The notes: generated by a model from the sequence alone, not told the origin. A DNA stretch of 64,000 nucleotides from Lentisphaeria bacterium (GCA_050949415.1 JBMNFR010000015.1:549093-613092), one strand, 5' to 3'; shown: positions 23,333 through 60,960, counted from the first letter of the stretch. Numbers and translations: made by a program.

Positions 23333-23408
<76 letters not shown>

Positions 23409-23414
23409 TTCTAA

Positions 23415-23450
23415 AAGCCCCAACTTCAACAGGTTGGGGCTTTTGTTTTA
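23415..23450. terminator. Bidirectional rho-independent terminator
   Basis: Hairpin gccccaac-ttcaacag-gttggggc followed by ttttgtttta. The reverse strand also ends in a T-run. It sits between the tRNA-Arg and the DUF1559 array. Confidence 0.6.
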
Positions 23451-23560
23451 TTCGGCTCAGTTGACGCTGAATTGCCTTGTTTTATGCTATTTCCCTGCTG
23501 TAAAATTGCATGAAAGGGTACCAAACGTCAACCATCGTTTCACCTGCTCGGCTCCGGATT

Positions 23561-24235: not shown

Positions 24236-24370
24236 GTCACTTCCTCCTGAGTCTAATGGAAAGCGCAACACTATGCTCAGAGCTTCAATCACCTCAGCAT
24301 GATTGACTGCTAAAAACTGCATCGCACCAATAAAATATTCCCTTCGCCATCAAAAAGCAAATTAAAAAAT

Positions 24371-24402
24371 AAAGGCACCCGAAAATAACTTTCGGATGCC
24401 TT
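24371..24402 (-). terminator. Rho-independent terminator for DUF1559 paralog 2 (conserved copies at about 25243-25275 and 26125-26160)
   Basis: Minus-strand hairpin aggcatccgaaagttattttcgggtgcct followed by a T-run, conserved in each inter-paralog spacer. Confidence 0.5.
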
Positions 24403-24435
24403 TAACTTTGCCGGACTTTGCCAGCAGCTCATGGC

Positions 24436-25110
24436 TCAGGGGTTCGTCCCTTTGTAGGTCGGGGACCAGTACTTGCCTGGGCTGCCGTAGGCCGGATAAA
24501 TCGGCACAGCGACGCGTCGCAGCCAATCCACATGCCCGTCTGCATACGTATTGTTCAAGCCTTCGTTGTGGCGACCGACCATTTCACCGTTGGCGGCGCC
24601 CTGGACAGCACTCCCGGGTTCTACGTCGCTGTCGAGATTGTAGGAGTCAGAGCCTTCAGCCTCGGAAAAGAACATGCAGGCGCTCGGGTTGACAAACTGC
24701 GAAAGGGGTTGGGCACCGGCGTAAAAATTAATGCCATAGTCGCTCGTGCCGCTGTAATTGCCGGTCCAGACGAACGTGTTGCTGGGACAGTCAAAGACTT
24801 TCAGGTCACCCACATACTCATAAATCAGACTGGTCCAGAGCCGGTAACCGCTGCTGGGACTGGTATTGGCATAAATATTACCGTTCGGAAGCACGTAATA
24901 GTGGCAGGGATATGCCACCGGCAAACGCTGGTAATCATCCGTATACATGATCATGCCGAGACCCAGCTGCTTCATGTTCGACGTGCAGGAAATAGCACGA
25001 GCCTTTTCGCGAGCCTTGGCCAAGGCAGGCAAAAGCATCGCCGCCAAAATCGCAATGATGGCAATGACGACCAAAAGCTCAATCAAAGTAAATCGCCGAG
25101 AATTCTTCAT
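24436..25110 (-). CDS. H-X9-DG prepilin-like protein (DUF1559), paralog 2
   Basis: Start [15 protein letters not shown] and the same C-terminal H-X9-DG block. The central region diverges from paralog 1. Confidence 0.8.
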
Positions 25111-25310
25111 GTCACTTCCTCCTGGGTTTGATGGAAAACGCTAGTCTATGCTTTGAGCTTCAGCCGTCGTTGCATGATTGACTGCTAAAAACCACATTGC
25201 ATCAATAAAATATTCCCTTCGCCATCAAAAAGCAAATTAAAAAATAAAGGCACCCGAAAATAACTTTCGGATGCCCTTAACTTTGCCGGACTTTGCCAGC
25301 AGCTCATGGT

Positions 25311-25967
25311 TTAGGGATTTGTCCCTGTATAAGTCGGGGACCAGTACTTGCCTGGGCTGCCGTAGGCCGGATAAATCGGCACAGCGACACGCCGCATCCA
25401 GTCCACATGACCATCCGCATACGTGTTGTTCAAGCCTTCGTTGTGGCGACCGACCATTTCGCCGTTGGCGGCGCCCTGGACATTCTGCGTGGGGCTTATA
25501 TCGCTGTCGAGATTGTAGGAGTCGGGGCCTTCGGCCTCGGAAAAGAACATGCAGGCGCTCGGGTTGACAAACTGCGAGAGCGGCTGGGTGCTGGCTCAAT
25601 AATTAATGCCGTAGTCGCACGCGCCGCTGTAATTGCCGGTCCAGACGAACGTGTTGCTGGGGCAGTCAAAGGCTTTCAGATCGCCGACATAGTCAAAAAC
25701 CAGGCTGGGCCAGAGCCGGTATCCAGTATGGGTGTTGCCGTTCGGAAGCACGTAGGTGGTGTTGGGATAGTTCACTGGCAAACGCAGGTAATCATCCGTG
25801 TACATGATCATGCCGAGACCCAGCTGCTTCATGTTCGACACGCAGGAAATGGCGCGAGCCTTCTCGCGTGCCTTGGCCAAGGCAGGCAAAAGCATCGCCG
25901 CCAAAATCGCAATAATCGCAATGACGACCAAAAGCTCAATCAACGTGAATCGCAAAAATCTCTTCAT
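25311..25967 (-). pseudogene. H-X9-DG prepilin-like protein (DUF1559), paralog 3, interrupted by an in-frame TGA
   Basis: ORFs 25596-25967 and 25311-25550 are in the same frame. They are separated by a TGA (plus-strand tca at about 25596-25598), where paralog 2 has GINFYAG and this copy reads GINY*. Confidence 0.6.
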
Positions 25968-26198
25968 GTTTCTTCCTCCTAAGGCTTGATGGAAAACTAA
26001 GGCTTGATGGAAAACGCTAGTCTATGCTTTGAGCTTCAGCCGTCTCTGCATGATTGACTGCCAAAAACTGCATTGCGCCAATAAAATATTCCCTCCGCCA
26101 CCAAAAACAAATTAAAAGATGATGGCAAAACATAAGGGCATCCGAAAAAGCTTTTTGAATGCCCTTGGTCTTGGCGGGCTTTGCCAGCAGCGCCTGTT

Positions 26199-26855
26199 TC
26201 AAGGATTCGACCCTTTGTAGGTCGGGGACCAGTATTTGCCTTGACTGCCGAAACTCGGATGAATCGGCACGGCGGCGCGCCGCAGCCATTCCACATGCCC
26301 GTCTGCATACGTATTGTTCAAGCCCTCATTGTGGCGACCGACCATTTCGACGTTGCTGGCGCCTGTGGACCAGTCGGTGGTGCTTGCGCCGCTGTTGAGA
26401 TTGTAGGAGTCAACGCCTTCGGCCTCGGAAAAGAACATACAGGCGCTCGGGTTGACAAACTGCGAGAGTGCATAGGCGCCCGCCAATTGGTTCATGCCAT
26501 AGTCGCTTGTGCCGCTATAGCCGCCTTTCCAGACGTACGTGTTGCTCGGGCAGTCAAAAGCCTTCAAGTCACCGACATAGTCAAAGACCAAGCTGGTCCA
26601 GAGCCGATAGCCGGTATAGGTGTTGCCGTTCGGAAGCACATAGGTGGTGTTGGGATAGTTCAACGGCAAACGCAGGTAATCATCCGTGTACATGATCATG
26701 CCGAGACCCAGCTGCTTCATGTTCGACACGCAGGAAATGGCGCGGGCCTTCTCGCGAGCCTTGGCCAAGGCAGGCAAAAGCATCGCCGCCAAAATCGCAA
26801 TGATGGCAATGACGACGAGAAGCTCAATCAACGTGAATCGTAGAAAAGTCTTCAT
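26199..26855 (-). CDS. H-X9-DG prepilin-like protein (DUF1559), paralog 4
   Basis: Start [15 protein letters not shown]. The C-terminal block [16 protein letters not shown] is conserved. Confidence 0.8.
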
Positions 26856-27077
26856 GTCTCTTCCTCCTAAAGCTTGGTGGAAAACGCCAGCAGTATAATC
26901 CAAAATTAAAAAGACGCTTCAGAAAATTTCAGCGCTTTAAAAATCTTCGCCGCAAGCTAATCATAAATATAACAAATTTTTATCAAAAAAACAAATCTGC
27001 TATCGTCTGCCAGCCTTTCCGCCTCTCCCTCTTTCGCGTTTCTCTTGTCTATCTCTCCTTCACTCATCTCTGCCGGG

Positions 27078-37605: not shown

Positions 37606-37906
37606 ACTAAAAAAGCCGGCCGCCCCTCCCCCCAAAAAAGTGCTTTTTTTGAACGCAAAACATAAAAGCACCTGAAAAGTTGACTGTGCTGAGCCGGGAA
37701 CGCACGGTGCAGACAACCTTTTGGATGCATCCAAAATACAACCACCGTAAACCGCGCACAAGTCTGCCTATCTTTTTCTGTCCAAGCTGTGCGTGGAATA
37801 GACAAAATCATTTGTTTTTAACCAAAAATTAGTGTATACTATATAACAAAGTGGTATCAAGCGCCCTTCAATGTACCGTAAGCATCAAAATAGGAAAGGG
37901 CTGGAT

Positions 37907-38632
37907 ATGAAATCAAAGCGACACTTCACCTTAATTGAGCTCCTCGTCGTCATCGCCATCATCGCCATCCTGGCAGCCATGCTCTTGCCGGCCTTGTCCA
38001 AGGCGCGGGAGAAGGCGATGAGCATCTCCTGCACCAGCAACGCCAAACAAATCGCCATGGCCAACATCATGTATGCCGATGACTTTAATTCCGTCTTGAC
38101 GCATGGCCAGTATTCGCACGATTTTAGAGTCACTACCCTACGCAACGGCGCCGAGGTCACCCTGATGTGGTTTGACAACCTCGCAAACTACACCGGCGAC
38201 TACAAGGTCTTCAACTGCCCGTCAAAAATCAATCTCGACGTCCTGGCCGGACGCCCCGGCTACGGCTGGAACTTCCAAAACATGCCTTATCGGCCGACCA
38301 CCGCCAATGCGGCCGTCCTCATCACCAGCTATAATTATCCCAGTGAAGTCATGGCCTTCGCCTGCCATTGCGACACCGTCAAGACCGGCAGTTTCGCCAG
38401 CGGCGGCACCGCCTACAGTTCAACCTACGCTTCGTACATCTACAGCCCAACCCGCGTCCGCACAATGCTCATTTACTGGGATGTGGCCAACGGCCTCTAT
38501 GGCCATGTCGGAGACCTCCACAACGAGGGCTCTAACATAGGACACCTGGACGGGCATGTGTCATGGCTGAAAAAAATTTCCTTCGACGACATGACCACCG
38601 CCGGCAAACGACTCTGGGGAGACATTAAATAA
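37907..38632 (+). CDS. H-X9-DG prepilin-like protein (DUF1559), paralog 5
   Basis: Start [38 protein letters not shown]-terminal [16 protein letters not shown] motif. Confidence 0.8.
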
Positions 38633-38985
38633 GCGCGACCAGAAAAAAAACACGGTCTTCCGGCCCTGTCCAGCCTCACCCGTACCCTCGTCACCGCAGA
38701 TAACACCAAAACTGACCGCATGTCAACCGTGGACAAGGCAGCATAATGTCCTCATCTAAAAAGCCTCGACTGACATTTTTCCGCAAGGACTGACTTTCGC
38801 CAGGCCGCTTTTTCATTATAGTATCACCGTAACAGCCCTAACAGCAAAAAGTTCTTAATCCTTCACGTCCTAGTTCGAAAAACGATAAGTTTGAAAACAC
38901 CAGTGGGTGAAAAGGCTCCCCTGCCCTTTTGCCACACCCACATAACTTTTGCAACCACAACTCCTTACCCATGGAAGGTCAACCC

Positions 38986-39723
38986 ATGAGTGCCAAACGA
39001 CACTTCACTTTAATTGAGCTCCTTGTCGTCATCGCCATCATCGCGATTCTAGCAGCCATGCTCCTGCCGGCTCTGTCCAAGGCGCGTGAGAAGGCGCATG
39101 GCATCTCCTGCACCAGCAACGCCAAGCAGATCGCCATGGCTAACATCATGTATGCCGATGACTATGATTCCACTATGACGCATGGCCAGTATTCGAAGCA
39201 TACCGGCGTCGATGCGATCACAACCATACGCAATGGCCAAACGGTCACCCTGATGTGGTACGATAACCTCTCAAACTACACCGGCGACTACAAGGTCTTC
39301 AACTGCCCGTCAAAAATCAATCTCGATGTCCTTTCCGGTCGCCCTGGCTACGGCTGGAGCCGCAACGGCATGCCTTATCGGCGGACGGCAAACGGCGCAC
39401 AAGAGGGCGTCCTCATCACCAAATTCAAATACCCCAGCGAAATCATGGTCTTCACCTGCCATTGCGACATCGCCAAAACCGGTCATTTCGCCAGCAACAG
39501 CTACGGCACGGTCTACTCCACGTACGTCTACACTCCTAACATCAACTCATATCGCACTCTCGACATCTGGGACTTGCCCAACGGCCTCTATGGCCATGTC
39601 GGAAACCTCCACAACAACGGCTCTAATATCGGCCATCTCGACGGGCACGTGTCATGGATGAAACAAACCTCATTCCTCGACACCAGCACTGCCGGCAAAC
39701 GGCTCTGGGGAGACATTAAATAA
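38986..39723 (+). CDS. H-X9-DG prepilin-like protein (DUF1559), paralog 6
   Basis: Start [16 protein letters not shown]-terminal [16 protein letters not shown] motif. Confidence 0.8.
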
Positions 39724-39759: not shown

Positions 39760-40095
39760 TGTACATGCGAGCATGTAGTTCAAGCTTTAGCTTGCAGTAT
39801 GTAGGAGCATGTAGTTCAAGCTTTAGCTTGCCGTATGTAGTTCAAGCTTTAGCTTGCTGTATGTAGGAGCATGTAGTTCAAGCTTCAGCTTGCTGTACGT
39901 CCCGCAGGCTTTAGCCTGCCAACATGCAACTCAAGCTTCTGCTTGCCGTACGAACCTCGCTTGCACGAGCATGTAGTTCAAGCTTCAGCTTGCTGTATGT
40001 AGTTCAAGCTTTAGCTTGCGGTATGTAGTTCAAGCTTCAGCTTGCTGTATGTACGAGCATGTAGTTCAAGCTTCAGCTTGCAGTATGTTTCGCGC
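39760..40095. repeat. Tandem hairpin repeat array (about 12 units of gtatgtagttcaagcttYagcttgc)
   Basis: Head-to-tail units of 25-32 bp with no unique spacers. Same family as 7220-7370. Confidence 0.8.
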
Positions 40096-40289: not shown

Positions 40290-40366
40290 GGGGCATTAGC
40301 TCAGTTGGCTAGAGCGTCTGCATGGCATGCAGAAGGCCATCGGTTCAACTCCGATATGCTCCACCA
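40290..40366 (+). tRNA. tRNA-Ala (anticodon GGC)
   Basis: Manual cloverleaf: acceptor GGGGCAT/ATGCTCC with the G3:U70 alanine identity pair, anticodon loop ATGGCAT, T-loop TTCAACT, CCA encoded. Confidence 0.85.
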
Positions 40367-40774
40367 CCCCAATTTTCAACCCGCCGAGTCCACCGATTCG
40401 ACGGGTTTTCTGTTTCCGGTGCAAGTGCCGATGGGACAGCGTGTTGCGTGGGCGCTTCTCCGCCTGTTTGCCACCCCAGGAGACGACGGTTTGGCCACGT
40501 TTGCCGCCGGAAGGCCCGAAATCTCCGCCGCTGTCTCTGTGCCTGACGGCCGAAGTCCTCGGTTTTATGCGATTTTAAGCCTGGGGATATTTCCGCGCAT
40601 AAACGCGTCTCTTTTTGCGTCGCGCGTGCCTGTCGCCAGTCTCTGTTTGGCCGTTTTGAGGCGGACGCCCAGGTCACGAAAGTTATTGTTCACAGAGACA
40701 AACCTTCGCTTTGAGTATCAACCGGCGACCACGGGTTGCGTCACCTGCGGAGCCAGGCGAGGCGGATACGGGCA

Positions 40775-40810
40775 CAAAAAAGCCGCCAGCCATTTGGCCA
40801 GCGGCTCCTT
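40775..40810 (-). terminator. Rho-independent terminator downstream of the recombinase operon
   Basis: Minus-strand hairpin gccgctggcc-aaat-ggctggcggc followed by tttttt. Confidence 0.5.
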
Positions 40811-40823
40811 TGTCCCAGTTACC

Positions 40824-41216
40824 TCATTGCGTCAGCAGTTCTTTCTGCTCGCTCCACAGGTCTGGAATCGTCTTTCGGGCCAGGGCGACGGACAGGCCAT
40901 TGATGCATTCGCCGTTGATGACCCGCCCGATGATTTCCGGCGCCAGCATGGACAGGCGGATGACGCGGGCCACATAGCTGAAGTCACGCCCGATGAGCGC
41001 CGCCAGGGCCTTGATGTTCTCCACCTTGCCCGCGTCGATGAGCTGCTGCCAGCGCCGTCCGCGCGCCACGGCCAGCAGGAACGCCTGGCGACCCGGATCG
41101 GCGGCTTCCTCCCCCGGTACGATGATCCGCGTGACGCCGCCCGTCTGCTTCACGCTCAACGGCACCGATACATGCAGGTTGCCATTGGGCAGGAGTTCAG
41201 CCGTTACGGTTTTCAT
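40824..41216 (-). CDS. hypothetical protein cotranscribed with the serine recombinase (possible directionality/accessory factor)
   Basis: 130 aa. Its start overlaps the recombinase stop by 20 nt. No motif recognised. Confidence 0.4.
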   Translation of the reverse strand: MKTVTAELLPNGNLHVSVPLSVKQTGGVTRIIVPGEEAADPGRQAFLLAVARGRRWQQLIDAGKVENIKALAALIGRDFSYVARVIRLSMLAPEIIGRVINGECINGLSVALARKTIPDLWSEQKELLTQ

Positions 41217-42483
41217 GGTCGATTTCCTCCTTGAAGGCCCTGATGCCCTCCGCCTTGAGTTCCAGGTCCATTTTATCCTCGTAGAGCCGGATGCGCTCGA
41301 TCAGGAGCTCCGCCAGCCGATGCTTCTCCACGCTGGTCGCCTCGTGCCAGAACGGCCGGCCCAGGACATCCGCCAGACCGTGGGCGTCGATGCCGTTCAA
41401 CCCGGCCAGGCTGGCCGCCATCAGCGGCGTGCGGAATACCGCCGACATCTGCGCGAACACCGCATCCTCCAGCCGCGCGGCGGGAACCTGGCGCACGGGG
41501 CAGCGCGAGATGGCCCGCCGCGAGTCCCTGGAGCACTTGTAGTACGAATAGCGCTTCCCGTTCTTCTTGGTCGTCGACACCGCCGTCATCGTGCCGCCAC
41601 AGTGGCCGCAGTAGAGGACGCCATTCAGGGCCGACACGTATTCAGACTTCCGCGTCAGGTCGGTCCTGGCCGGGCTGGCATCCATGAAGCGCTGGACCCT
41701 CTCCCAGGTCTCCCGGTCCACGATGGCCGCGTGTTCGCCCTCGAAGATTTCGCCCTTGTGGCTCACCTTCCCGTCGTAGAGGCAGTTGCGCAGGATATGG
41801 TGCAGCTTGTTCTTGTCCCACGGGCGGCCGCGCTTGGTCTTGCAGCCCTGGGCATTGAGCTCGATGGCAATCTGCTTGGGCGACTGCAGGTCCAGGTAGC
41901 GCCGGTAGATGTGGCGCACGGTCTCGGCCTCCTCGTCCACCACCACTAGCTTGCGGTTCTGGACGCAGTAGCCCAAGGGCACCATGCCGCCCATCCACAT
42001 CCCCTTCCGCTTGCTGGCCGCGAACTTGTCACGGATACGCTCGCCGATGATTTCACGCTCGTACTGCGCGAAGGTCATCAGGATATTCAGCATCATCCGG
42101 CCGGACGAGGTCGAGGTATTGATGTCCTGGGTCACCGAACAGAAGCTGACGTTGTACTGGTCGAAGAACTTGGTCAACTCCGCGAAGTCGCAGATGCTGC
42201 GGCTCAACCGGTCGATTTTATAGACCAGCACCACGTCGATGTTGCCGGCGCGGCATTCGGCCATGAGGTGCTTCAACGCCGGCCGGCTGGTGTTGCCGCC
42301 GCTGAAGCCCCCGTCGTCAAAGCGCTCCGGCAGACACACCCACCCGTTCGCCTTCTGCGAGGTGATATAAGCCTCGCCGGCCTCGCGCTGGGCGTCAAGG
42401 CTGTTGAACTCCTGCTCCAGCCCTTCGTCAACGCTCTTGCGCGTGTAGATCGCGCAGCGCTTCTTCTGTGGTTTGGGTTCCAT
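41197..42483 (-). CDS. Large serine recombinase (resolvase/invertase catalytic domain + recombinase domain + zinc ribbon)
   Basis: N-terminal CAIYTRKSVDE...LDAQRE with the catalytic Ser, and RLSRS. C-terminal CxxC...CxxC (YCGHCGG ... YYKCSRD). Confidence 0.9.
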   Translation of the reverse strand: MEPKPQKKRCAIYTRKSVDEGLEQEFNSLDAQREAGEAYITSQKANGWVCLPERFDDGGFSGGNTSRPALKHLMAECRAGNIDVVLVYKIDRLSRSICDFAELTKFFDQYNVSFCSVTQDINTSTSSGRMMLNILMTFAQYEREIIGERIRDKFAASKRKGMWMGGMVPLGYCVQNRKLVVVDEEAETVRHIYRRYLDLQSPKQIAIELNAQGCKTKRGRPWDKNKLHHILRNCLYDGKVSHKGEIFEGEHAAIVDRETWERVQRFMDASPARTDLTRKSEYVSALNGVLYCGHCGGTMTAVSTTKKNGKRYSYYKCSRDSRRAISRCPVRQVPAARLEDAVFAQMSAVFRTPLMAASLAGLNGIDAHGLADVLGRPFWHEATSVEKHRLAELLIERIRLYEDKMDLELKAEGIRAFKEEIDHENRNG

Positions 42484-42935
42484 CAGTTCACTCCAAAGAA
42501 CCGTTTGCCATTCCAGTGCGTGCCGGTGATTTCCGAGGCGATGGCGCTCAAGGACTTGTACGTCCTGCCGTTATACTCGAAGCAGCGCGCGCCCTGGACG
42601 ATGACCTCGTAGGTCGTGCCTTGCCATTCCCGCAGGAAGCGCGTGCCCCTGGTGCTGGTGTATTTCCGCGTCCGCGGGCTTTCCAGCCTGGCCAGCGGGT
42701 CGCCATCGGCCAGTTCGGCAAGGAACTGAGCGGCCGACGGCGGGAAGCCGCCAAACTGGAGTTCCTGCAGACGGTAGGCGATGCGGCGCCGGAGCGTATC
42801 CGCGTTGGCCACCCTCGACGGGAAGCCGTACAGCTCCTCGAACTTATCCCTCAAGCCGTCCAGTGCCAGCCCGTCGAGGGCGGCTATCTGGCGCCTTATC
42901 AGTGCATGTTTGTCAATCATCTTTGCAGCCTCCAT
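42483..42935 (-). CDS. DUF2924-family protein (recombinase-associated)
   Basis: 150-aa protein immediately upstream of the serine recombinase and translationally coupled to it, a commonly observed pairing. The family assignment is from memory of that architecture. Confidence 0.6.
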   Translation of the reverse strand: MEAAKMIDKHALIRRQIAALDGLALDGLRDKFEELYGFPSRVANADTLRRRIAYRLQELQFGGFPPSAAQFLAELADGDPLARLESPRTRKYTSTRGTRFLREWQGTTYEVIVQGARCFEYNGRTYKSLSAIASEITGTHWNGKRFFGVN

Positions 42936-43094
42936 TAGCAGTTGGTACCGCGTTAATTAAGCTGTCATTGCCAGGCTTATCCAGTCGCTTCTCCGAGATT
43001 CGACGCAGAATATTGGCGGCGATGATGAGCGCCTGCTGCAGGTGGACGGGGAGACGCTTGCCTGGCTCTTTGGACGGGATGCTGCGGCCTTCCT

Positions 43095-43721
43095 TCATTT
43101 CATGCCTCCCAACAGCCTGATGACCTTGGGGGCGATGTGGTGATGGAAACGATTCAGAAACGTCGTGAAGGGGCACTGGCGGCTCCGGGCAATGGCCCGG
43201 AGGGAGGCGCCCACCATGAGTTGCCGGCAGATGTCAGCGTCCTCTACCGGAAGCTGGGCGAGGGCTGCGGCCACCGTATCTTTGAGTTCCAGATACTCAA
43301 TATCCGTGCGGTTCTGGCAGCCAATGGCGATGCGGTACTCATCACTGGAGATGCAGTCGCCAAGCGTATAGTCCCCCTGGCCAACTTCCTGCTCCAGCGA
43401 AGCCTCACAGGTCCCTTTGGCCAGGCTGCGGGCACGGTTCCTGCACATGGTATTCGCCGTCTGATTGCAGACCATGTTGGCATAGGTGTAGCGGCTGCTC
43501 AGCGCGGGGTTGAACTTCGGCATCTGCTGCCAGAGGGAAAGGCGCAGTTCCTGCTTGATGTCGTCGTTCTCGTGCTGCGGGAACCGGCCGGAGCGTACCA
43601 GCCGCAAGGCAGTCAGACGGATGATTTTCTCGGTGCGCTCGTCGAACAGTTCGTTGTCGGTGATGTGGCCGCTTGGGGCGACGGCGGGGGTCGGGTTGGA
43701 TTTGCTCTGATGCATGGACAT
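43095..43721 (-). CDS. ECF sigma-70-like protein (regions 2 and 4)
   Basis: DDIKQELRLSLWQQMPKFNP resembles sigma region 2.2. LPVEDADICRQLMVGASLRAIARS resembles the region 4 helix-turn-helix. The N-terminal about 40 aa may not be part of the protein. Confidence 0.45.
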   Translation of the reverse strand: MSMHQSKSNPTPAVAPSGHITDNELFDERTEKIIRLTALRLVRSGRFPQHENDDIKQELRLSLWQQMPKFNPALSSRYTYANMVCNQTANTMCRNRARSLAKGTCEASLEQEVGQGDYTLGDCISSDEYRIAIGCQNRTDIEYLELKDTVAAALAQLPVEDADICRQLMVGASLRAIARSRQCPFTTFLNRFHHHIAPKVIRLLGGMK

Positions 43722-43870
43722 AATCCTCTTGGGTTGAGGAGGAGTCCAGGAACACCGTCAGGACACAAAAAAACGGAGGCAGCCGAAATTCGCCAGTGTA
43801 CTGGCGGCATTCCTGGCTACCTCCTTCTACGGTCGGTAGGTCAGTGATTACCGGTTGGGTTGTGGTCGGA

Positions 43871-44194
43871 TCAGATGGCGTTCAGCGCCTTTTCAATCTC
43901 AAAACGGATGGGGAGACCATCCTGGATGACGATGCTACGGATGAAGCCGTTGCCGACGGCGTGGAGCTGGTTGAGAAAGTCCGCCTGGCAGTCTTTCAGC
44001 GTGAAGGGGTTGTCGCCGGCCACCCTCCCGGCCACGTTCCCGCCTTCCTGCTTAAAACTTTGCACCTCGCGGCTGGTGGGAATGGTCACCGCGATGCCGT
44101 CCCTCAGTTCCAGGTTTTCGATGGAGCCAAAGCCGATGCGGTTGATATGCGCCAAGAGCTTTTTGTCCGATAGAGAGATGTGGGCTGAATTCAT
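43871..44194 (-). CDS. small protein with two YezD/DUF2292-like motifs
   Basis: Start at MNSAHISLSD (the ORF track extends to 44398). Two repeats of the pattern G.GSI....qDG..v.i. Confidence 0.35.
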   Translation of the reverse strand: MNSAHISLSDKKLLAHINRIGFGSIENLELRDGIAVTIPTSREVQSFKQEGGNVAGRVAGDNPFTLKDCQADFLNQLHAVGNGFIRSIVIQDGLPIRFEIEKALNAI

Positions 44195-45032
44195 TGTTAA
44201 CTCCAGAGTTGTTTTTGCGGCCAGATTGTCTGGCACTTGCGGGCTTGTGTGATAGATTATGAATCTATCGGATCGAGTCGGGCTTGCGCGGCAAACCCGT
44301 TTCCGGCATGGCCAGCGCCATGCTTGTTCAACACCGCCAAAGGTGGGAAACAAGGTCCAGGCGTTCCCCAGGTTTGGGTGTCCGGCCCGGTTTCCCATTT
44401 CATTATGGTATCGGACGGGAGGGATGCCCTCCCTGGTGGCGGCTGTGTGGCCGGTTAATGGCGGCTGCGACTTTCATGACTACGTTGGCTATGGTCGTTT
44501 AGCGGGCCAAGTGCCCTTGTCTTTCCTGTGCCAACGGCCTGTTCGCGTTCTTGACCGCCTGCCCTGCTACATACGAAGTGGTTCAGCTCATCGGCTTCAT
44601 GCATTCAGCTCCCTGGTGCGGCTATGTCGGATAGTGCTCCTATGGTGCCTTGGACGGGATTGGTTACTGCTTCTTGCCTTAGCGCTCTATGCCTTCTGCG
44701 GGGCGAGTCACCATGCGGCTTGCCTTTAGAGTTCTGCTTACATGGTCAGCTGATTCAGCAAACAGAAATTTTGCAGGTATTGCCAATAACGATGACTCCA
44801 ATTCTTCATCATAACATTCTGTACTGTAATCGCTTTCCTCCCTTCTCCTGCGTGCCATTAGCCCATGTCTTTATGGCTTTCAATGCCGTGCCGGCCTTCG
44901 TAACAATGTTTACTATATGACATGCAAGGGACATATCAAGTCCCACACAAATATTTTTGTTGCAAAGAGGAAGAAACGGGGTACTGTATTGTGGATGTCA
45001 TTCTGACTACACTACTTGGGATAAGACGCACA

Positions 45033-46037
45033 ATGCCGACCAATAAACCGTTCGTGGCCTCGAAGAAACAGCTCCACCGCCTAACCTGCATCGTGTCGCT
45101 GCTTAAAAGGAGCGACGATGTCACGGCTGATAAAATCATAGGTGAGCTTAGGGGGGCTGAACAGGATACGGGCATCTCGTTGGGGACCGGGGCCAAGACC
45201 GTCTACCGTGACATGCAGACCCTGCGGGAGGAATACAAGTGCCCCGTGGTGTACGACTCGCGCCGTGCCTGCTACACCCTGTCTGACAAACAGTGGTCCT
45301 TCCCGGTGCCGACGCTCCTCAACGACACGGAAATCCTTGCGGTCATCATCGGGGCCAAGTTTGCCGAAAAGTTATTTGCGCCGGAAATTGCGGACCAGAT
45401 TAGCCAGGCCGCCGCGCAAATCATGCAGACGAACAGCACCGGTTCCACGGCAGCCAACCGCATGGACTCGCTCCAAATCCTGTCCACGAAGGTGGTCAGG
45501 GTCACAAACAAGCACTTCCCGGCGGTGTTTAACGCATGGTCCCAATGCCGCTGTTTGGACATGAAGTATAAAGACACCCACGGGAAAGTGGGGGGGCGTA
45601 TCATTGAGCCGCATGGGCTTGTCTACTATGGCACCAACTGGTATATACTGGCCTACTGCCGCGAAGCCAAGGACCGACGGCTGTTCAACGTGTCGCGCAT
45701 CTTGGGAGCCACTATAGAGGACGATACGTTTACACCGCGAGAGGACATCATCAAAAGTTTCACCGTGGATGAGATGATGATCTTTTCCAAGATGCGCGGT
45801 ATTGTAGTAAAGTTGACTGACGCTGGCGCCAGGTTTGCGCGGACATACAAGCTGCATCCAGGGCAAAAGCTGTCCAAGGGTGACGATGGCAGCTACAAGC
45901 TAACCGCACCGGCGGCCAATGAAAAACACGCGGTATCCTGGATATTGCAGCAAGGTGGCGAAGCAACGCCGCTGGAGCCGGAGCTTCTGGTGACGGCAGT
46001 CAAAGAGGCCGTGAAGAAGCTGTCGTCGCTGTCATAG
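45033..46037 (+). CDS. WYL-domain transcriptional regulator (N-terminal helix-turn-helix + WYL)
   Basis: N-terminal HTH (GISLGTGAKTVYRDMQTLREEY). Central GLVYYGTNWYILAYCREAKDRRLFNVSRI is the WYL motif. The ORF track starts at 44922; 45033 was chosen at MPTNKP. Confidence 0.7.
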   Translation: MPTNKPFVASKKQLHRLTCIVSLLKRSDDVTADKIIGELRGAEQDTGISLGTGAKTVYRDMQTLREEYKCPVVYDSRRACYTLSDKQWSFPVPTLLNDTEILAVIIGAKFAEKLFAPEIADQISQAAAQIMQTNSTGSTAANRMDSLQILSTKVVRVTNKHFPAVFNAWSQCRCLDMKYKDTHGKVGGRIIEPHGLVYYGTNWYILAYCREAKDRRLFNVSRILGATIEDDTFTPREDIIKSFTVDEMMIFSKMRGIVVKLTDAGARFARTYKLHPGQKLSKGDDGSYKLTAPAANEKHAVSWILQQGGEATPLEPELLVTAVKEAVKKLSSLS

Positions 46038-46377
46038 CCCGCCGCTGCCGGGAATCGTAGCGGGGAAAGCATCAGGACACAATGGGCCGCCAGGCAACAG
46101 GTGGATAGCGACTTTACAACGCGTTGTAAAATTGCCCTTCCAGCTGTAATGACCGTCACCAACCGGACCGACGCACGCATATAGGAGGCAAGGTATCGGC
46201 GTCGACCTACGTAATTGGTAGGCAAGCTGACACTACTTGGGCCATTCGGCCTTGCCGGCCTGTCACGGGTCGCATAAACTGAGCCAGTAGAGGGTCGCAT
46301 CCAAACTGAGCCACCTGCAAACAGGAACATGCCATATATTACCTTTTTTGCCACTTGAAGAACAAAGGAGGTAGCAA

Positions 46378-48018
46378 ATGGCTAACATCAAGCAGGTGAA
46401 CGTGATAGAACGAATACAACAGCTCTGCCGGCAGGGTGCCAGCCAACGCCGGATAGCCCGTGAACTGGGCGTCAGCCGCAACACCGTGGCCCGTTATGCG
46501 GGCAAAACACCCGGGGCCCCGGTCGGGGGTGGCTCAGTTTCAGACCATGCGACCCACGGGGCGCCGGCTGGCCCGGACGGGCAAAATGAGCCACAAGCGA
46601 CCCACGGGGTGGCTCAGTTTGAAAATCATCCTTTCGTGCCTGATGCGACCCACGGGTCTGAAACGCCGACCGGTGCCGTCCCGCCGGCGCCGGAAGCTGA
46701 CGCCCGGTCGCTTTGCGCCCCCCATGCCGACTTCATCCGGCAAGAGCTGGCCATGGGACTTTCCGGCCGTCGCATCTTCCAGGACTTACAGGATGATTTC
46801 GCCTTTTCCGGCAGCTACGCCAGTGTGAAAAGATACCTTCGCCACCTTGGCCGGACCGCTCCCCCTGTTCCCTTCCGCCGCCTGCGCAAGGAACCGGGCC
46901 TGGAGATGCAGGTCGATTACGGTACTGGAGCGCCTGTCTATGACGACCGCGGGCGCCTACGCAAGACCTGGCTTCTGTGCTGCACTCTCAGCTACAGCCG
47001 CCGAATCTATTGCGAGGTCCATTATCGCCAGGATACCCAGAGCTTCATCCGCGGCATTGAAAACGCCTTCATCTATTTTGGCGGGGTCCCCGCCACCCTT
47101 GTCATCGACAACCTCAAGGCCGGCGTCACCAAGGCCGACCTGTACGATCCCGTCCTGAACCCCATGCTGGCATCCTTCGCCCGTCACTACGACACGTGCG
47201 TGCTTCCCTGCCGCCCGGGGATGCCGCGGCACAAGGGGAGGGTCGAGAACACGGTCGGGTATGTCCAGGACAATGCTCTCAAGGGCCGCCGGTTCGATGC
47301 GATCAACGAACAGAACGGGTTCCTCTGGAAATGGCAGGGGAACGTGTCGGACCACCGCTTTCACGGCACCGAGAAACGCCACGTCATCGACATGTACGCC
47401 GAGGAGAAGCCATACCTGCAGCCCCTGCCGCCGATGATCTTCCCCTGCTTCAGCGAATCCCGGAGGAAGGTCCACAGCGATGGCCATGTCGAAGTCATGG
47501 GCGCCTATTATTCAGTTCCGCCCGAATACACGGGACGCGAGGTCTGGGTCAGATACGACGGCCGAGTCGTCACCATCCTGAACGACGGCCAGGAAGAGCT
47601 GTGCATCCACACCGTCACGCCCAAAGGGAAGACGTCCACGCTCCGCGGGCACGTTCCGGCCGAGAAGACCTGGGGGCCTGAGCAGGGCGGCAGCTGGCTG
47701 TCCAGCCGCATCGGAGCGGAAATCGGGGAAGGCGCCAAGGCATGGGCGGAGGAAATGGCACGGACGCGGAAGGCGGCGGCGCCCAAGGTGATGTTCGGGC
47801 TGCTGGCCCTGCTCAAGAAACATTCCCGAAGCAGCATTGAGTTCGTCTGCAACATGGCGCTGGAAACACGAGCCGACAGCCTGCAGGACATCAAGGCGCT
47901 CCTGGAGCATAACCGGGACGGCAGGCAGGGAGAGCTCCACTTCGACGCCCGCGGCGAGGACATCAGGGAACTCGACTACTATGAAACGCAGGCAAAGACC
48001 AGGGAGGCCTTCGCATGA
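46378..48018 (+). CDS. istA: IS21-family transposase IstA
   Basis: N-terminal HTH RRIARELGVSRNTVARY. DDE core QVDYGTG ... SYSRRIY ... FGGVP..LVIDNLKAGV. Contains an unusual in-frame roughly 60-aa insert (ATHG..AQF x3) encoded by copies of the IS terminal-repeat motif. Confidence 0.85.
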   Translation: MANIKQVNVIERIQQLCRQGASQRRIARELGVSRNTVARYAGKTPGAPVGGGSVSDHATHGAPAGPDGQNEPQATHGVAQFENHPFVPDATHGSETPTGAVPPAPEADARSLCAPHADFIRQELAMGLSGRRIFQDLQDDFAFSGSYASVKRYLRHLGRTAPPVPFRRLRKEPGLEMQVDYGTGAPVYDDRGRLRKTWLLCCTLSYSRRIYCEVHYRQDTQSFIRGIENAFIYFGGVPATLVIDNLKAGVTKADLYDPVLNPMLASFARHYDTCVLPCRPGMPRHKGRVENTVGYVQDNALKGRRFDAINEQNGFLWKWQGNVSDHRFHGTEKRHVIDMYAEEKPYLQPLPPMIFPCFSESRRKVHSDGHVEVMGAYYSVPPEYTGREVWVRYDGRVVTILNDGQEELCIHTVTPKGKTSTLRGHVPAEKTWGPEQGGSWLSSRIGAEIGEGAKAWAEEMARTRKAAAPKVMFGLLALLKKHSRSSIEFVCNMALETRADSLQDIKALLEHNRDGRQGELHFDARGEDIRELDYYETQAKTREAFA

Positions 48019-48767
48019 GCATCGATAACATCCGTACGCAGCTGAAGCAGCTCAGGCTGTCCGGAGCCTCAACGGCCCTGGATCTGCGCCTGCAGGAAGC
48101 AAGAGCCAACTGCCTGGACCATGCCCAGTTCCTTGAAATACTCATGCAGGACGAGCTGCTCAACCGGTCGAACAACAAGATGAAAGCCGCCCTCCGGCTG
48201 GCCGGCTTCAGGGGCTTGAAGCCGCTTTCCGACTTCGACTGGCAGTTCAACCCGAACCTGGACCGGAGGGCCTTCTACGAACTCGCCGGGGGCGATTTTG
48301 TGCGCAAGGGAACCAACGTCCTGTTCGTCGGGCCTTCCGGGACGGGCAAGACCTGCCTGGCGCAGGCTATCGGCTACGAGGGGCTGAAACTCGGCTTCTC
48401 GGTCATCTACCGGTCAATCTTCGACGTGGTCGGCAGTCTGCAGCGGTTCAACGCGCTCAGTGACCGGAATGCGGAGTTCGACCGGTACCTCAAGGCAGAC
48501 CTGCTGCTCATCGACGACATGGGGCTTAAGCAGCTGCCGGAAAAGTCAGGGGAGCTGCTCTTCGAGATCATCTTCCGCCGGCACGGGCTCAAATCCACGC
48601 TGATGACCAGCAACCGGCCGCTGGAAGAGTGGGGAAAGCTCATCCGCGACGTGCCGACGGCGGGGGCGATCCTGGACCGCTTCCTGGAGCAGTCGCTGGT
48701 CATCCGGTTCAAGGGACGAAGCTACCGGCTGGCAGGGACACCCGAGCCGGCCGCCACCGAGCACTAG
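48015..48767 (+). CDS. istB: IS21-family helper ATPase IstB
   Basis: Walker A GPSGTGKT, Walker B LLLIDDMG, and a 4-nt overlap with istA. Confidence 0.9.
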   Translation: MSIDNIRTQLKQLRLSGASTALDLRLQEARANCLDHAQFLEILMQDELLNRSNNKMKAALRLAGFRGLKPLSDFDWQFNPNLDRRAFYELAGGDFVRKGTNVLFVGPSGTGKTCLAQAIGYEGLKLGFSVIYRSIFDVVGSLQRFNALSDRNAEFDRYLKADLLLIDDMGLKQLPEKSGELLFEIIFRRHGLKSTLMTSNRPLEEWGKLIRDVPTAGAILDRFLEQSLVIRFKGRSYRLAGTPEPAATEH

Positions 48768-49441
48768 CCGTCGCTGCCCGTCTCCGTCTCCGACGAGATG
48801 GTGTCCCATTCTCGACGGAGACGGACGGCGACGGCAGAAAGGCAGGCCATGCGACCCACGGGGCGAAGTGGCTCAGTTTGCGAATCGCAATCTTGTCCTG
48901 TTTTGTCAATAACGGCCGTCAAACTGAGCCACAAGCGACCCACGGGGCGGCTCAGTTTGACAAAAAAACAACGATACGTCGAAAGGAGGTTGGAAACAGA
49001 ACCAAACACAGGCATGCAACTATTTTACCAACGATGAGTTATGACTTTGGTTGTTGTAAAAATATAACCAGGCATTAACTTAGGGAAGTGGCTCATTTTG
49101 ATGCGACCCACAGGTGGCTCATTTTGATGCGACCCGTGACAATATTGCACAAGAGCTGCTGGAACGGAAGGCAATCCCCCAGCAGGAACTGCGAAGCTAT
49201 TTACCGCCGTCTTGACCAACAGTACAACATGGTTGAACGGCCACCCAAATCTGACATGGTCTGCCGGATGATTGCCAACCAATTCGGGTGGAATGTACCG
49301 GACAAGCAAGCGTTGGGCTGGGACTTCAAGCCGCTGCTAGATGACTATACCACACCAGTGCGGATTAGGCTGGTGCAGATGGCGAAAAAGTGTCAGCTCA
49401 ATTTTCAATCCAGCCTCAAAATGAAAGGAGTATAAACGCAA

Positions 49442-59529: not shown

Positions 59530-60960
59530 TCAAATTCTGCCTCTTCTGGGGTTTGCGAAAAAACGGGGTTATTTTAGGGTGGCTTTGAGCATTTGCTTGG
59601 TTAACGTCATTGACGGCAAATCATAAATTTTCAGTTTCATGTACTTATAGTCACGATATCCATAGGCCTGGGATATCAGATGTCGGATTTTGTTGTTGAA
59701 GCCCTCGGTGGCGGCATTAGTTAGCCGGTCGAACTGCCAATAGGCACAGATACCGTCCAGATGCTGTGCCACCGTCCTTCCCATGGTCTTGAGCTCAGGG
59801 ATGTTCATTCGCTGGCAGATGCCGGCCCAATCGGTCAGCATCCGTCGAGCCTCGTCGGCATCGTCGGCCAGCTGGTAGATTTTGACCAGGCACTCCTTAA
59901 GCGTCCAGGCATCGTAGAGGTCTTTGGAGACCTGCTGCAGGGCTTCAATCGACAGTTTCTCGTCATCGGTGAGGTCGTCGCTGTTATGCAACAGTGCCCA
60001 CCGCTTGCCCTTCAGCTGCTTGGTGGCTTCCTGGTCCAACTCTGACTGGACTTTTCGGCGGACCTTGTCCAGCTTCTGGTTCATCAGCTGGATGACATGA
60101 AAGTGATCGTAAACTACCGTCGCGTTAGGAAGCTGCTCTCTCACCCATTTGGCATAGGCGTTGCTCATGTCCATGCACACGGCCTCAACGTCGGCTTTGA
60201 AGTGGTTAAGCCGGGCCTTGAAGGGGGCCAGCGCCTCGCTACCCTTGCCGTCGCCGACAAACAGCACGGCTCCATTGAGCATGTTACGGACCACCGTCAG
60301 GTACTTTTGCCGGCGCTTGCCTTCAACCCGTTCATGGCCAACGTGAATCTCATCTATCCCGATGATCCTGATCCCCTTCATGTGGATGTGACTGTATTCC
60401 TTTTCCAGCCAGCTCACTTCCACATTTTTGACGGCCTCCCAGTCCAAATCGAAATGGGCAGCGATGGCGCTGATGGTCATCGTGTCCCGCAATTCCAGGA
60501 TCGAACGGGCCATGGCGCGGGTCATGCGAGCCTTGGGGTGGGGGAGGAAATCCGGATTTTCGTAGGACATGGCCTGGCACTTCCGGCAATAAAGACGATG
60601 AACCAACATCTTTAAGTAAAGTCTTTTGCTGCCAATGTTTTGTCTTTGAATCACACGTTCGCGGACAGGATAAGCCTTGACCTCGGCTGATCCACACTCC
60701 GGGCAGCGGAATTCTTTGCATTCGATTTTCTCGTAGCAGGCGCCACCCTTGTATTCCATGGCGATGTGCTTGCAACTTCTGATCCCTTGAGTATGGTAAA
60801 GAACACTGGTCATCATCCGGAAAGCCTCCTTGGTTATGGGTTGGAAATGAACACATAACATAAGGCTGATGATGACCAGCTTCAACTGCTCGTTGCGCCG
60901 GTAAAGTCATGATTGGCTTTGCAAGGGAAATGAAACATTTCCCTTGCAAAGCCGGTCATG
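59530..60960 (-). mobile_element. ISL3-family insertion sequence (boundaries approximate)
   Basis: Single ISL3 transposase gene. Flanking ggctttgcaagggaaatg-type sequences appear at both ends, with a perfect 40-bp palindrome at 60916-60955 and a hairpin at 59490-59522. The exact inverted repeats are not resolved. Confidence 0.45.
59569..60816 (-). CDS. ISL3-family transposase
   Basis: Start MMTSVLYHTQGI with an AAGGAGG ribosome-binding site. N-terminal zinc finger CKEFRCPECG...CRKC and an ISL3 DDE domain. Confidence 0.85.
   Translation of the reverse strand: MMTSVLYHTQGIRSCKHIAMEYKGGACYEKIECKEFRCPECGSAEVKAYPVRERVIQRQNIGSKRLYLKMLVHRLYCRKCQAMSYENPDFLPHPKARMTRAMARSILELRDTMTISAIAAHFDLDWEAVKNVEVSWLEKEYSHIHMKGIRIIGIDEIHVGHERVEGKRRQKYLTVVRNMLNGAVLFVGDGKGSEALAPFKARLNHFKADVEAVCMDMSNAYAKWVREQLPNATVVYDHFHVIQLMNQKLDKVRRKVQSELDQEATKQLKGKRWALLHNSDDLTDDEKLSIEALQQVSKDLYDAWTLKECLVKIYQLADDADEARRMLTDWAGICQRMNIPELKTMGRTVAQHLDGICAYWQFDRLTNAATEGFNNKIRHLISQAYGYRDYKYMKLKIYDLPSMTLTKQMLKATLK

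What the first reader, a model, noticed from the sequence alone, without database searches (positions are those of the whole stretch)
40290..46037. tRNA-Ala-adjacent island: DUF2924 + large serine recombinase + accessory gene, with cargo of ECF-sigma-like, tandem YezD-like and WYL regulator genes
Directly 3' of tRNA-Ala(GGC) is a minus-strand DUF2924 - serine recombinase - small ORF module. These three genes are translationally coupled and terminate at a hairpin at 40775-40810. Beyond the module lie a sigma-70 region 2/4-like gene, a small protein with a duplicated DUF2292/YezD-like motif, and a roughly 700-bp non-coding gap (44200-44920). A divergently oriented WYL-domain regulator follows. 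WYL regulators commonly gate phage-defence or mobile-element cargo. The combination of a serine-recombinase integrative module with a sigma-factor/WYL pair of unknown function is not a described system. The non-coding gap could hold an sRNA or att site.
Basis: partly seen in the sequence, partly recalled or inferred. Interest (0 to 1): 0.6.

Follow-up and report, generated by a model that had tools for sequence, protein, structure and literature searches.

The report
Compact serine-recombinase mobile element, Lentisphaeria
This is a 5.5-kb, seven-gene mobile DNA element in a Lentisphaeria genome: a phage-type serine integrase set joined to its own sigma-factor and WYL control genes, which makes it an unusual variant of a known kind rather than a new system, and it is not a tRNA-integrated island.

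Summary
Two details differ: the WYL gene starts at 45033, so the gap is 838 nt, and the YezD (DUF2292) label is only weakly supported.

The interpretation needs correcting in four ways.
- **Boundaries.** Related metagenome contigs place the ends of the conserved unit at about 40772 and 46260. The left end is just past the terminator and 405 bp from tRNA-Ala. A 97%-identical copy (L017) and a 78%-identical copy (L019) stop at the same nucleotide but have different flanks and no tRNA.
- **"Cargo".** The sigma-like, 107-aa and WYL genes, plus an overlooked 61-aa gene, are conserved core. They stay linked to the recombinase genes in relatives down to 36-44% identity and are under purifying selection.
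- **Known parts.** DUF2924, a large serine recombinase and a 130-aa "small subunit" form the integrase set of phages WO and AcaML1. It occurs in 53 of 60 related viral contigs, none of which has the regulatory genes.
- **Right side.** An IS21 with no target duplication and strain-variable left flanks shows rearrangement there.

Best reading: a compact integrative element whose recombinase operon is controlled by its own ECF-type sigma factor and a WYL regulator, a layout like Tn916 and Tn5397. This is a new variant of a known kind, of moderate interest.

The parts
40772..46260 (.). Whole conserved mobile unit (about 5.49 kb, seven genes)
   Evidence: Similarity to L017 (97%) and L019 (78%) stops at 40772-40774. 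Similarity to L016 (95.6%) stops at 46260. The flanks differ in each contig.
40776..40806 (-). Intrinsic terminator of the operon, abutting the left end of the element
   Evidence: An 11-bp stem, a 4-nt loop and a U-run; -39.1 kcal/mol, z -4.9. It is conserved in L017 and L019.
40824..41216 (-). 130-aa recombinase 'small subunit' (a C-terminal domain encoded as a separate ORF)
   Evidence: phrog_14161 'recombinase', E 3e-22. It aligns to residues 404-507 of phage WO gp31 (E 2.6e-15) and to AcaML1 Gp2, annotated 'recombinase small subunit' (E 5e-12). It is separate or fused in 53 of 60 viral relatives.
41197..42483 (-). Large serine recombinase, 428 aa
   Evidence: Resolvase + Recombinase + Zn_ribbon_recom. 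phrog_95 integrase, E 1e-115. 44% identical to AcaML1 Gp3 and 43% to WO gp31. PDB matches: TP901-1, A118, SPbeta and phiC31 integrases. The YTRKS and DRLSR motifs are present in the translation.
42483..42935 (-). DUF2924 protein, 150 aa, predicted DNA-binding partner of the recombinase
   Evidence: PF11149, E 5e-39. Homologous to AcaML1 Gp4 and WO gp30. Lies immediately upstream of the recombinase in 53 of 60 viral contigs. DUF2924 partly matches the RAMA DNA-binding domain (PMC11342252).
42913..43098 (-). Conserved 61-aa protein of unknown function (candidate directionality factor or anti-sigma factor)
   Evidence: Called by JGI. Conserved in L013, L014, L016, L017, L019, L020, L022 and L102. 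dN/dS 0.25-0.28. No family match.
43095..43715 (-). ECF-type sigma-70 family protein, 206 aa
   Evidence: AlphaFold model at pLDDT 89, whose top Foldseek hits are SigL, SigH, RpoE, AlgU and sigmaE. Followed by DUF2924 in relatives at 36-66% identity.
43871..44194 (-). 107-aa protein with two helix plus beta-hairpin repeats, function unknown
44195..44530 (-). Conserved, hairpin-rich leader upstream of the 107-aa gene
   Evidence: About 68% identical in L020 and L021, similar to the coding regions. 78 predicted pairs, 8 with compensatory changes; several palindromes.
44531..45032 (.). Non-conserved spacer upstream of the WYL gene. It holds the palindrome GGGAC-N7-GTCCC (44928-44944), which overlaps a promoter-like site
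   Evidence: No similarity to the same-length spacer of L020 except this motif, which L010 also has. TTGATA-16-TATAGT on the minus strand at 44939-44912.
45033..46037 (+). Transcription regulator with WYL and WCX domains, 334 aa
   Evidence: PF13280 and PF25583. PADLOC WYL models, E 5e-29. PDB matches: PafC 3e-11, BrxR 6e-5. It is the first gene of the operon, in the same direction, in L010, L011, L013 and L019, and inverted here.
46038..46260 (.). Right-end non-coding segment of the element
   Evidence: 97% identical in L016 up to 46260.
46261..49141 (+). Context, not part of the element: IS21-family insertion sequence (IstA and IstB)
   Evidence: Terminal inverted repeats and no target duplication. 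The left flank varies between strains.
40290..40366 (+). Context, not part of the element: tRNA-Ala(GGC), 405 bp from the element end
   Evidence: No tRNA at other copies of the element.

Best explanation
Window 40772-46260 is a compact integrative mobile element of about 5.5 kb. It belongs to a small family seen almost only in Lentisphaeria-type metagenome contigs.

**Movement machinery.** This is the three-part serine integrase set known from phages WO and AcaML1: a DUF2924 DNA-binding protein, a 428-aa large serine recombinase and a 130-aa "small subunit". The small subunit corresponds to the C-terminal domain that is fused to the recombinase in WO.

**Control genes.** The element carries its own regulators instead of phage or conjugation genes:
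- a WYL-WCX regulator;
- an ECF-type sigma factor;
- two small proteins of 107 and 61 aa.

The sigma, 61-aa, DUF2924, recombinase and 130-aa genes overlap one another, and the 107-aa gene lies about 150 nt upstream on the same strand. I read this as a single operon that ends at a strong terminator at the element's left edge; that is an inference from the layout.

**Inferred mechanism.**
- The WYL protein keeps the operon off, probably through the GGGAC-N7-GTCCC palindrome and the palindromes in the leader.
- When the WYL protein is relieved by its ligand, the element's sigma factor is made and raises transcription of the recombinase genes. Excision or integration follows.
- This is the logic of Orf9, Orf7/Orf8 and xis-int in Tn916.
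- One of the small proteins may act as an anti-sigma factor or as a recombination directionality factor.

**What is shown and what is inferred.** Shown: gene content and homologies, conservation of the seven-gene unit, its boundaries, and its presence in different flanks. Inferred: which protein controls which, the direction of control, and current activity.

The neighbouring tRNA-Ala looks incidental. The adjoining IS21 has rearranged the right flank.
For: **Boundaries and mobility**
- L017 (97% identical) and L019 (78%) lose similarity to the window at the same point, 40772-40774. Their flanks are an M20 peptidase gene and a NERD gene.
- L016 (95.6%) loses similarity at 46260 and continues into an FGE-sulfatase gene about 250 bp away.
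- In L024 the element part is 96.9% identical to the window, while the flank on the same contig is 99.86% identical.

**Integrase set**
- Homology to AcaML1 Gp4, Gp3 and Gp2 and to WO gp30 and gp31.
- 53 of 60 IMG/VR relatives keep both DUF2924 and the small-subunit domain.
- The WO recombinase is the phage integrase (PMC9203015). AcaML1 is a prophage with defined att sites (PMC3826726).

**Regulatory genes are core**
- The sigma gene, the 61-aa gene and DUF2924 stay linked at 66, 65, 44 and 36% sigma identity.
- The WYL gene and the 107-aa gene stay linked at 44-50% identity.
- dN/dS is 0.1-0.45 for all seven genes.

**Sigma identity:**

**Regulatory sites and terminator:**
Against: - No excised circle, empty site or att repeats were found. 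A search for the joined ends found nothing.
- The alternative flanks come from short metagenome contigs, which could be chimeric.
- The right end coincides exactly with an IS21 end, so it may be an IS-made truncation rather than the true end.
- L019 has a BREX gene (brxL) 6 kb upstream and L022 has other genes upstream, so some relatives may be larger elements.
- The window copy, L002 and L007 share the same left flank, which also fits plain vertical inheritance.
- No experiment links the sigma or WYL protein to recombinase expression.
Confidence: 0.55

Rival explanations
1. It is the leftover lysogeny and integration end of a larger prophage or integrative element. The rest was removed by IS21-mediated deletion or rearrangement, and the seven genes survive as an immobile remnant.
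For: - The recombinase trio is typical of prophage ends: 60 IMG/VR contigs, plus AcaML1 and WO.
- The IS21 has no target duplication, and its left flank differs between strains.
- L024 shows a further 524-bp IS-adjacent loss into the WYL gene.
- Insertion sequences sit next to the module in L006, L019 and L020.
- L019 has brxL and five unknown ORFs upstream.
Against: - L016 and L017 show ordinary-looking chromosomal genes within about 200-250 bp of both ends of the same 5.5-kb unit.
- None of the 60 viral relatives carries the WYL, 107-aa or 61-aa genes.
- No relative of the sigma protein was found in viral contigs, or at BLAST level in phage or plasmid records.
- All seven genes are intact and under purifying selection.
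Confidence: 0.22
2. It is the mobility and regulation end of a defence island. The WYL protein would act like BrxR or CapW to control nearby anti-phage genes, and the recombinase would move or shuffle that island.
For: - The WYL protein matches PADLOC WYL models and BrxR.
- L019 has BrxL 6 kb upstream.
- In other strains a helicase and an HD-CE protein sit at the same IS21 flank.
Against: - There are no defence genes inside the unit or beside it in the window, L016 or L017.
- In the co-directional relatives the WYL gene is the first gene of the recombinase operon, not of a defence operon.
- An IS4-family transposase gene separates brxL from the module in L019.
Confidence: 0.13
3. It is a resident chromosomal switch. 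The serine recombinase would invert a DNA segment, for example the one carrying the WYL gene, to control a sigma-factor regulon, and the locus would not be mobile.
For: The WYL gene is found in both orientations among relatives. Serine recombinases include invertases (phrog_125).
Against: - The two orientations occur only between lineages about 50% diverged, never among close strains.
- No inverted repeats flank the WYL segment.
- The recombinase has the full large-serine-recombinase domain set of integrases.
- The unit occurs in different flanks.
Confidence: 0.05

Closest known systems
Integrase module of Wolbachia phage WO (gp30 DUF2924 + gp31 large serine recombinase) and Acidithiobacillus phage AcaML1 (Gp5 63 aa, Gp4 DUF2924, Gp3 'large subunit', Gp2 'small subunit')
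   Same: - Same order and overlapping arrangement of genes: small ORF, DUF2924, recombinase, small subunit.
- 43-44% recombinase identity and 29-37% DUF2924 identity.
- The 130-aa protein aligns to the WO gp31 C-terminus and to AcaML1 Gp2.
   Different: - Those modules sit at the end of 30-60 kb prophages with structural genes. Here the whole unit is 5.5 kb with no phage genes.
- They have no sigma-like, 107-aa or WYL genes.
- The 61-aa protein is not detectably related to Gp5.
- AcaML1 integrates at the tmRNA gene with 10-bp repeats (PMC3826726). No repeats were found here.
Tn916 regulatory region (orf9 repressor; orf7/orf8 activators; xis-int), and Tn5397, where a large serine recombinase (TndX) replaces xis-int
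   Same: - A regulator gene sits next to an operon that starts with positive regulators and reads through into the recombination genes (PMC5812530).
- From my own knowledge, not checked here: Orf7 is sigma-factor-like, and Tn5397 uses TndX.
   Different: - No detectable sequence relationship was tested or found.
- Those are 18-21 kb conjugative transposons of Firmicutes with transfer genes. The regulator there is a small helix-turn-helix protein, not a WYL protein.
- There is no DUF2924 gene and no split recombinase.
Tn4451/Tn4453 (TnpX) small elements driven by a serine recombinase
   Same: A small element of about 6 kb moved by a large serine recombinase through a circular intermediate (own knowledge). 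The TnpX catalytic domain matches the window recombinase (2mhc).
   Different: Tn4451 carries a resistance gene and mobilisation genes, and has no sigma, WYL or DUF2924 genes. No circle has been shown here.
WYL-domain regulators (PafBC, BrxR, CapW, DriD)
   Same: WYL and WCX domains. Sequence matches to PafC (E 3e-11), BrxR (6e-5) and the DeoR-family regulator of PDB entry 8tp8.
   Different: Those control DNA-damage or anti-phage genes. Here the protein is encoded within, or divergently from, a recombinase operon. Its ligand and targets are unknown.

Membership tests
Large serine recombinase (serine integrase) | N-terminal resolvase-type catalytic domain with the serine nucleophile motif | tested here: met
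   PF00239 E 1.6e-35 over residues 11-163. The YTRKS and DRLSR motifs are in the translation. Matches the TP901-1 and TnpX catalytic domains.
Large serine recombinase (serine integrase) | Recombinase domain followed by a zinc-ribbon domain | tested here: met
   PF07508 E 1.3e-22 and PF13408 E 7.9e-15. Residues 170-344 align to the A118 integrase C-terminal domains.
Large serine recombinase (serine integrase) | Catalyses attP x attB integration and excision | not testable with these tools
   No att sites or excised junction were found. Needs an experiment or raw reads.
Phage WO / AcaML1-type three-part integrase module | DUF2924 gene immediately upstream of, and overlapping, the recombinase gene | tested here: met
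   1-nt overlap at 42483. The same arrangement is seen in AcaML1 and WO and in 53 of 60 viral relatives.
Phage WO / AcaML1-type three-part integrase module | C-terminal 'small subunit' domain, fused or as a downstream ORF | tested here: met
   The 130-aa protein matches WO gp31 residues 404-507 (E 2.6e-15), AcaML1 Gp2 (E 5e-12) and phrog_14161 (E 3e-22).
Phage WO / AcaML1-type three-part integrase module | Located at the end of a prophage with structural genes | tested here: not met
   There are no phage genes in the unit or its flanks. The unit is 5.5 kb.
tRNA-integrated genomic island | Element end lies within or at the 3' end of the tRNA gene, with a direct repeat of the tRNA 3' part at the far end | tested here: not met
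   The boundary is at about 40772, 405 bp from the tRNA end. The only repeat of the tRNA end is an 18-nt, 83% match at 49394 (D14). Other copies have no tRNA nearby.
ECF (group 4) sigma-70 family | Two-domain sigma2 + sigma4 architecture of about 200 aa | tested here: met
   Sigma70_r2 E 1e-4 and TIGR02937 E 2e-8 over residues 37-178, both just under the curated cut-offs. 37 of 53 relatives match Sigma70_r2. The model (pLDDT 89) aligns over 175-190 columns to SigL, SigH, RpoE, AlgU and sigmaE.
ECF (group 4) sigma-70 family | Binds core RNA polymerase and directs transcription from a cognate promoter | not testable with these tools
   No promoter motif could be defined from the few diverged leaders.
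YezD / DUF2292 | Significant match to PF10055 | tested here: inconclusive
   E 0.029, 14.4 bits against a cut-off of 22, covering only residues 12-26. The two-repeat fold is predicted, but no structural match was found.
WYL-domain transcription regulators | WYL domain followed by a WCX domain, with an N-terminal DNA-binding region | tested here: met
   WYL E 3.7e-16 and WCX E 7e-11. A PADLOC WYL model covers residues 13-317. No separate Pfam match was found for the N-terminal helix-turn-helix.
BREX BrxR | Encoded at the head of a BREX locus that it regulates | tested here: not met
   No BREX genes are in the window. Only L019 has brxL, 6 kb away and beyond an IS.

The most novel reading that the evidence does not exclude
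The seven genes would be a complete, self-contained mobile element with no cargo. Its excision and integration would be gated by an element-encoded ECF sigma factor under a ligand-sensing WYL regulator. The 107-aa tandem-repeat protein and the 61-aa protein would be a new anti-sigma factor and a new recombination directionality factor for the WO/AcaML1 class of split serine integrases.
Probability: 0.2. Interest if true: 0.55.

Novelty: new variant of a known kind. Interest (0 to 1): 0.38.

Why it matters
**If the reading holds**
- It would be a compact, self-regulated serine-integrase element that joins two things usually seen apart. One is a phage WO-type split integrase, whose DUF2924 partner and small subunit have no assigned role. 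The other is a sigma-factor plus WYL control circuit.
- It would give a small, tractable system for finding out what DUF2924 and the small subunit do. That bears on phage WO biology and on the use of serine integrases as genome-engineering tools.
- It would also show how a WYL sensor can gate DNA mobility.

**If it is only a remnant**
It is an ordinary decayed integration module beside an IS21 rearrangement hot spot.

Tried and rejected
**Searches for att sites and an excised form**
- Direct and inverted repeats over 39-50 kb gave only short chance-level matches. These include D14, an 18-nt 83% match of the tRNA end at 49394.
- By eye, the hexamer GCACAA occurs at the left end (40772-40777) and again 5 nt past the IS21 (49147-49152). 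It is too short to count as evidence.
- Also by eye, the two ends share a weak GGCCAnnnGGC motif. I did not treat it as significant.
- A pattern for the joined ends found nothing in viral contigs or in the fetched loci.

**Orthologous empty site**
- Contigs carrying the exact upstream DUF1559 protein all stop at window-equivalent 40365-40609, so none shows an alternative junction.
- Contigs carrying the exact downstream response regulator all have the IS21 right end.

**Distribution**
- The genome-contig scan with the sigma family found one short MAG contig. The viral scan found none.
- tblastn of the sigma protein against phage and plasmid records found nothing.
- The first, 16-sequence alignment was too diverse for a locus scan.

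**Function of the small proteins**
- 61-aa protein against AcaML1 Gp5: hhalign probability 5%, so no relationship is shown.
- DUF2924 has no solved relative.

**Non-coding RNA in the gap**
Rfam at E <= 1 found only the tRNA and one chance microRNA-type hit.

**Rejected readings**
- A phase-variation switch.
- A BrxR-type defence regulator as the main explanation.
The reasons are given under the rival explanations.

Full report
**Source and layout**

The window is part of a 650-kb metagenome contig (JGI 3300053716, Ga0534105_00109). NCBI labels the corresponding protein as coming from a Lentisphaeria MAG.

The region reads, from left to right:

| Coordinates | Strand | Feature |
|---|---|---|
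| 40290-40366 | + | tRNA-Ala(GGC) |
| 40367-40771 | | 405 bp with no recognised feature |
| 40776-40806 | - | Terminator |
| 40824-41216 | - | 130-aa gene |
| 41197-42483 | - | Serine recombinase |
| 42483-42935 | - | DUF2924 |
| 42913-43098 | - | 61-aa gene |
| 43095-43715 | - | Sigma-like gene |
| 43871-44194 | - | 107-aa gene |
| 44195-45032 | | 838-nt gap |
| 45033-46037 | + | WYL-WCX regulator |
| 46038-46260 | | 223 bp non-coding |
| 46261-49141 | + | IS21 element |
| 49442 onward | + | Two-component system |

This layout rests.

**Checking the observation**

- The hairpin is a strong intrinsic terminator: -39.1 kcal/mol, z -4.9.
- The gene overlaps fit translational coupling.
- The sigma assignment is weak by Pfam and NCBIfam scores, but firm overall:
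  - an exhaustive search gave 704 relatives of sigma-factor size;
  - 37 of 53 sampled relatives match Sigma70_r2;
  - a confident model (pLDDT 89) matches only sigma factors, with ECF types first.
- The 107-aa protein does have two helix plus beta-hairpin repeats. The YezD (DUF2292) label is below threshold.
- Homologues support 45033 as the WYL start.

**The recombinase genes are a known phage module**

- The recombinase has the full domain set of a large serine recombinase. It matches the TP901-1, A118, SPbeta and phiC31 integrases.
- It is 44% identical to AcaML1 Gp3 and 43% to phage WO gp31.
- In AcaML1 the neighbours are a 63-aa ORF, a DUF2924 protein, the "large subunit" and a 127-aa "small subunit". 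In WO, gp30 is DUF2924 and gp31 carries the small-subunit region at its C-terminus.
- The window's 130-aa protein aligns to gp31 residues 404-507, to AcaML1 Gp2 and to phrog_14161.
- Of 60 IMG/VR contigs with a 40-53% identical recombinase, 53 have DUF2924 directly upstream and 53 have the small-subunit domain, either fused or separate.
- The WO recombinase is the phage integrase (PMC9203015). AcaML1 is a prophage integrated at the tmRNA gene (PMC3826726). DUF2924 partly matches the RAMA DNA-binding domain (PMC11342252).

**The supposed cargo is conserved core**

- The word-index homology search found only 8 relatives of the sigma-like protein and 11 of the 107-aa protein among 5.8 billion sequences. 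All that could be placed are in the same gene neighbourhood.
- The linkage holds as identity falls:
  - sigma at 65%: followed by the 61-aa ORF, DUF2924 and the recombinase;
  - sigma at 44%: followed by the 61-aa-like ORF and DUF2924;
  - sigma at 36%: followed by the 61-aa-like ORF and DUF2924;
  - sigma at 29%: the neighbour is a methylase instead;
  - 107-aa protein at 44-50%: preceded by the WYL gene and followed by the sigma gene and DUF2924.
- dN/dS is 0.1-0.45 for all seven genes.
- Identities differ block by block. The WYL gene is one block, the 107-aa, sigma and 61-aa genes a second, and DUF2924, the recombinase and the 130-aa gene a third. This is the mosaic pattern typical of mobile elements.
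- None of the 60 viral relatives has the WYL, 107-aa or 61-aa genes.

**Boundaries and mobility**

- L017 is 97% identical over window 43966-40772 and then continues into an M20 peptidase gene.
- L019 is 78% identical over 44007-40774 and then continues into a NERD-domain gene.
- Both break just past the terminator.
- L016 is 95.6% identical from 42618 to 46260 and then continues into an FGE-sulfatase gene about 250 bp away.
- So the conserved unit is about 40772-46260 and occurs in at least three flank contexts. No tRNA is found beside the other copies.
- L002 and L007 share the window's left flank.
- In L024 the element part is 96.9% identical to the window, against 99.86% for the adjoining IS21 and chromosome.
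- No att repeats, excised junction or empty site were found.

**The right side is rearranged**

- The IS21 has clear terminal inverted repeats but no target duplication.
- Across ten other contigs its right end and the response-regulator flank are fixed, while the left flank varies:
  - the element end at 46260 in the window;
  - the WYL gene cut at 45736 in L024;
  - a helicase and HD-CE locus beside an internally deleted IS21 in L023 and L025.
- The interval from the tRNA to the response regulator is therefore not a simple insertion.

**The gap**

- In L010, L011, L013 and L019 the WYL gene is the first gene of the operon, in the same direction, about 290-300 nt upstream of the 107-aa gene.
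- In the window and its closer relatives the WYL gene, together with its upstream region, is inverted.
- The 330 nt next to the 107-aa gene are conserved and rich in hairpins and palindromes. Of 78 predicted pairs, 8 show compensatory changes.
- The remaining 510 nt or so are not conserved, apart from a GGGAC-N7-GTCCC palindrome. This lies about 90 nt upstream of the WYL start and overlaps a promoter-like site.
- Rfam finds nothing there.

**Mechanism (inferred)**

- The DUF2924 protein, the recombinase and the small subunit carry out integration and excision.
- The WYL regulator senses a ligand and controls the operon.
- The ECF-type sigma factor amplifies transcription through the recombinase genes. 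This parallels Tn916, where Orf9 represses, Orf7 and Orf8 activate, and transcription reads into xis-int (PMC5812530).
- The 107-aa and 61-aa proteins co-evolve with the sigma gene and are candidates for an anti-sigma factor or a directionality factor.
- None of this was tested.

**Verdict**

- The claims of tRNA integration, of "cargo" and of an undescribed system are only partly right.
- This is a new variant of a known kind: a WO/AcaML1-type serine-integrase module packaged with a sigma-factor and WYL control cassette as a 5.5-kb unit. It is found almost only in metagenomes; its closest copies are labelled Lentisphaeria or Lentisphaerales.

Noticed in passing
window 39770-40090 (also about 7203-7370 and 19981-20117): Nine copies of a 28-nt palindromic unit (CATGTAGTTCAAGCTTnAGCTTGCnGTA), spaced 26 or 36 nt apart, lie just upstream of tRNA-Ala. 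Similar repeats occur elsewhere in the window, so this is a REP- or MITE-like dispersed repeat.
   Followed up: partly
window 46261-49141; L023 5122-5424; L025 2822-3124: The IS21 element has no target-site duplication. In two other samples it is internally deleted: 46261-46563 is joined to 48843 onward, between its own repeated CCATGCGACCCACGGGGCG motifs. That leaves a 132-aa fragment of IstA containing only the helix-turn-helix.
   Followed up: partly
L023 1-5143 and L025 1-2843: In strains 99.3-99.8% identical to the window across the shared IS21 and response-regulator flank, the IS21 left flank is different. It carries a large ResIII/DEAD helicase, a 299-aa ORF and an HD-CE/iHD-CE/HATPase_c_3 protein, which looks like a defence locus.
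   Followed up: partly
L019 220-2349 and 6866-8245: A 78%-identical copy of the element lies 6 kb downstream of a BREX brxL gene. Five unknown ORFs and an IS4-family transposase gene lie in between.
   Followed up: partly
window 40367-40771: The 405 bp between tRNA-Ala and the element end travel with the element in L002 (95% identical) and L007 (88%), but are absent from L017 and L019. Every contig from other samples that covers tRNA-Ala ends inside or just before this stretch.
   Followed up: partly
window 43095-43715 compared with L017: Between the two closely related copies, the sigma-like gene has about 7% amino-acid differences but few synonymous changes (dN/dS about 1.5). In distant comparisons dN/dS is about 0.35.
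   Followed up: no
window 37871-38632 and 38929-39723: Two tandem paralogous genes for DUF1559 proteins with a prepilin-type N-terminus, about 80% identical in nucleotide sequence, lie upstream of the tRNA.
   Followed up: no
window 23333-27000: tRNA-Arg(CCT) is followed by a stretch of lower G+C (0.50-0.53) that contains a DUF1559 gene and several ORFs with no family match. No integrase was seen in the ORFs that were scanned.
   Followed up: partly
window 59569-60885 and 62746-63738: An ISL3-family transposase gene and an Amidoligase_2 gene lie in the lower-G+C right part of the window.
   Followed up: no
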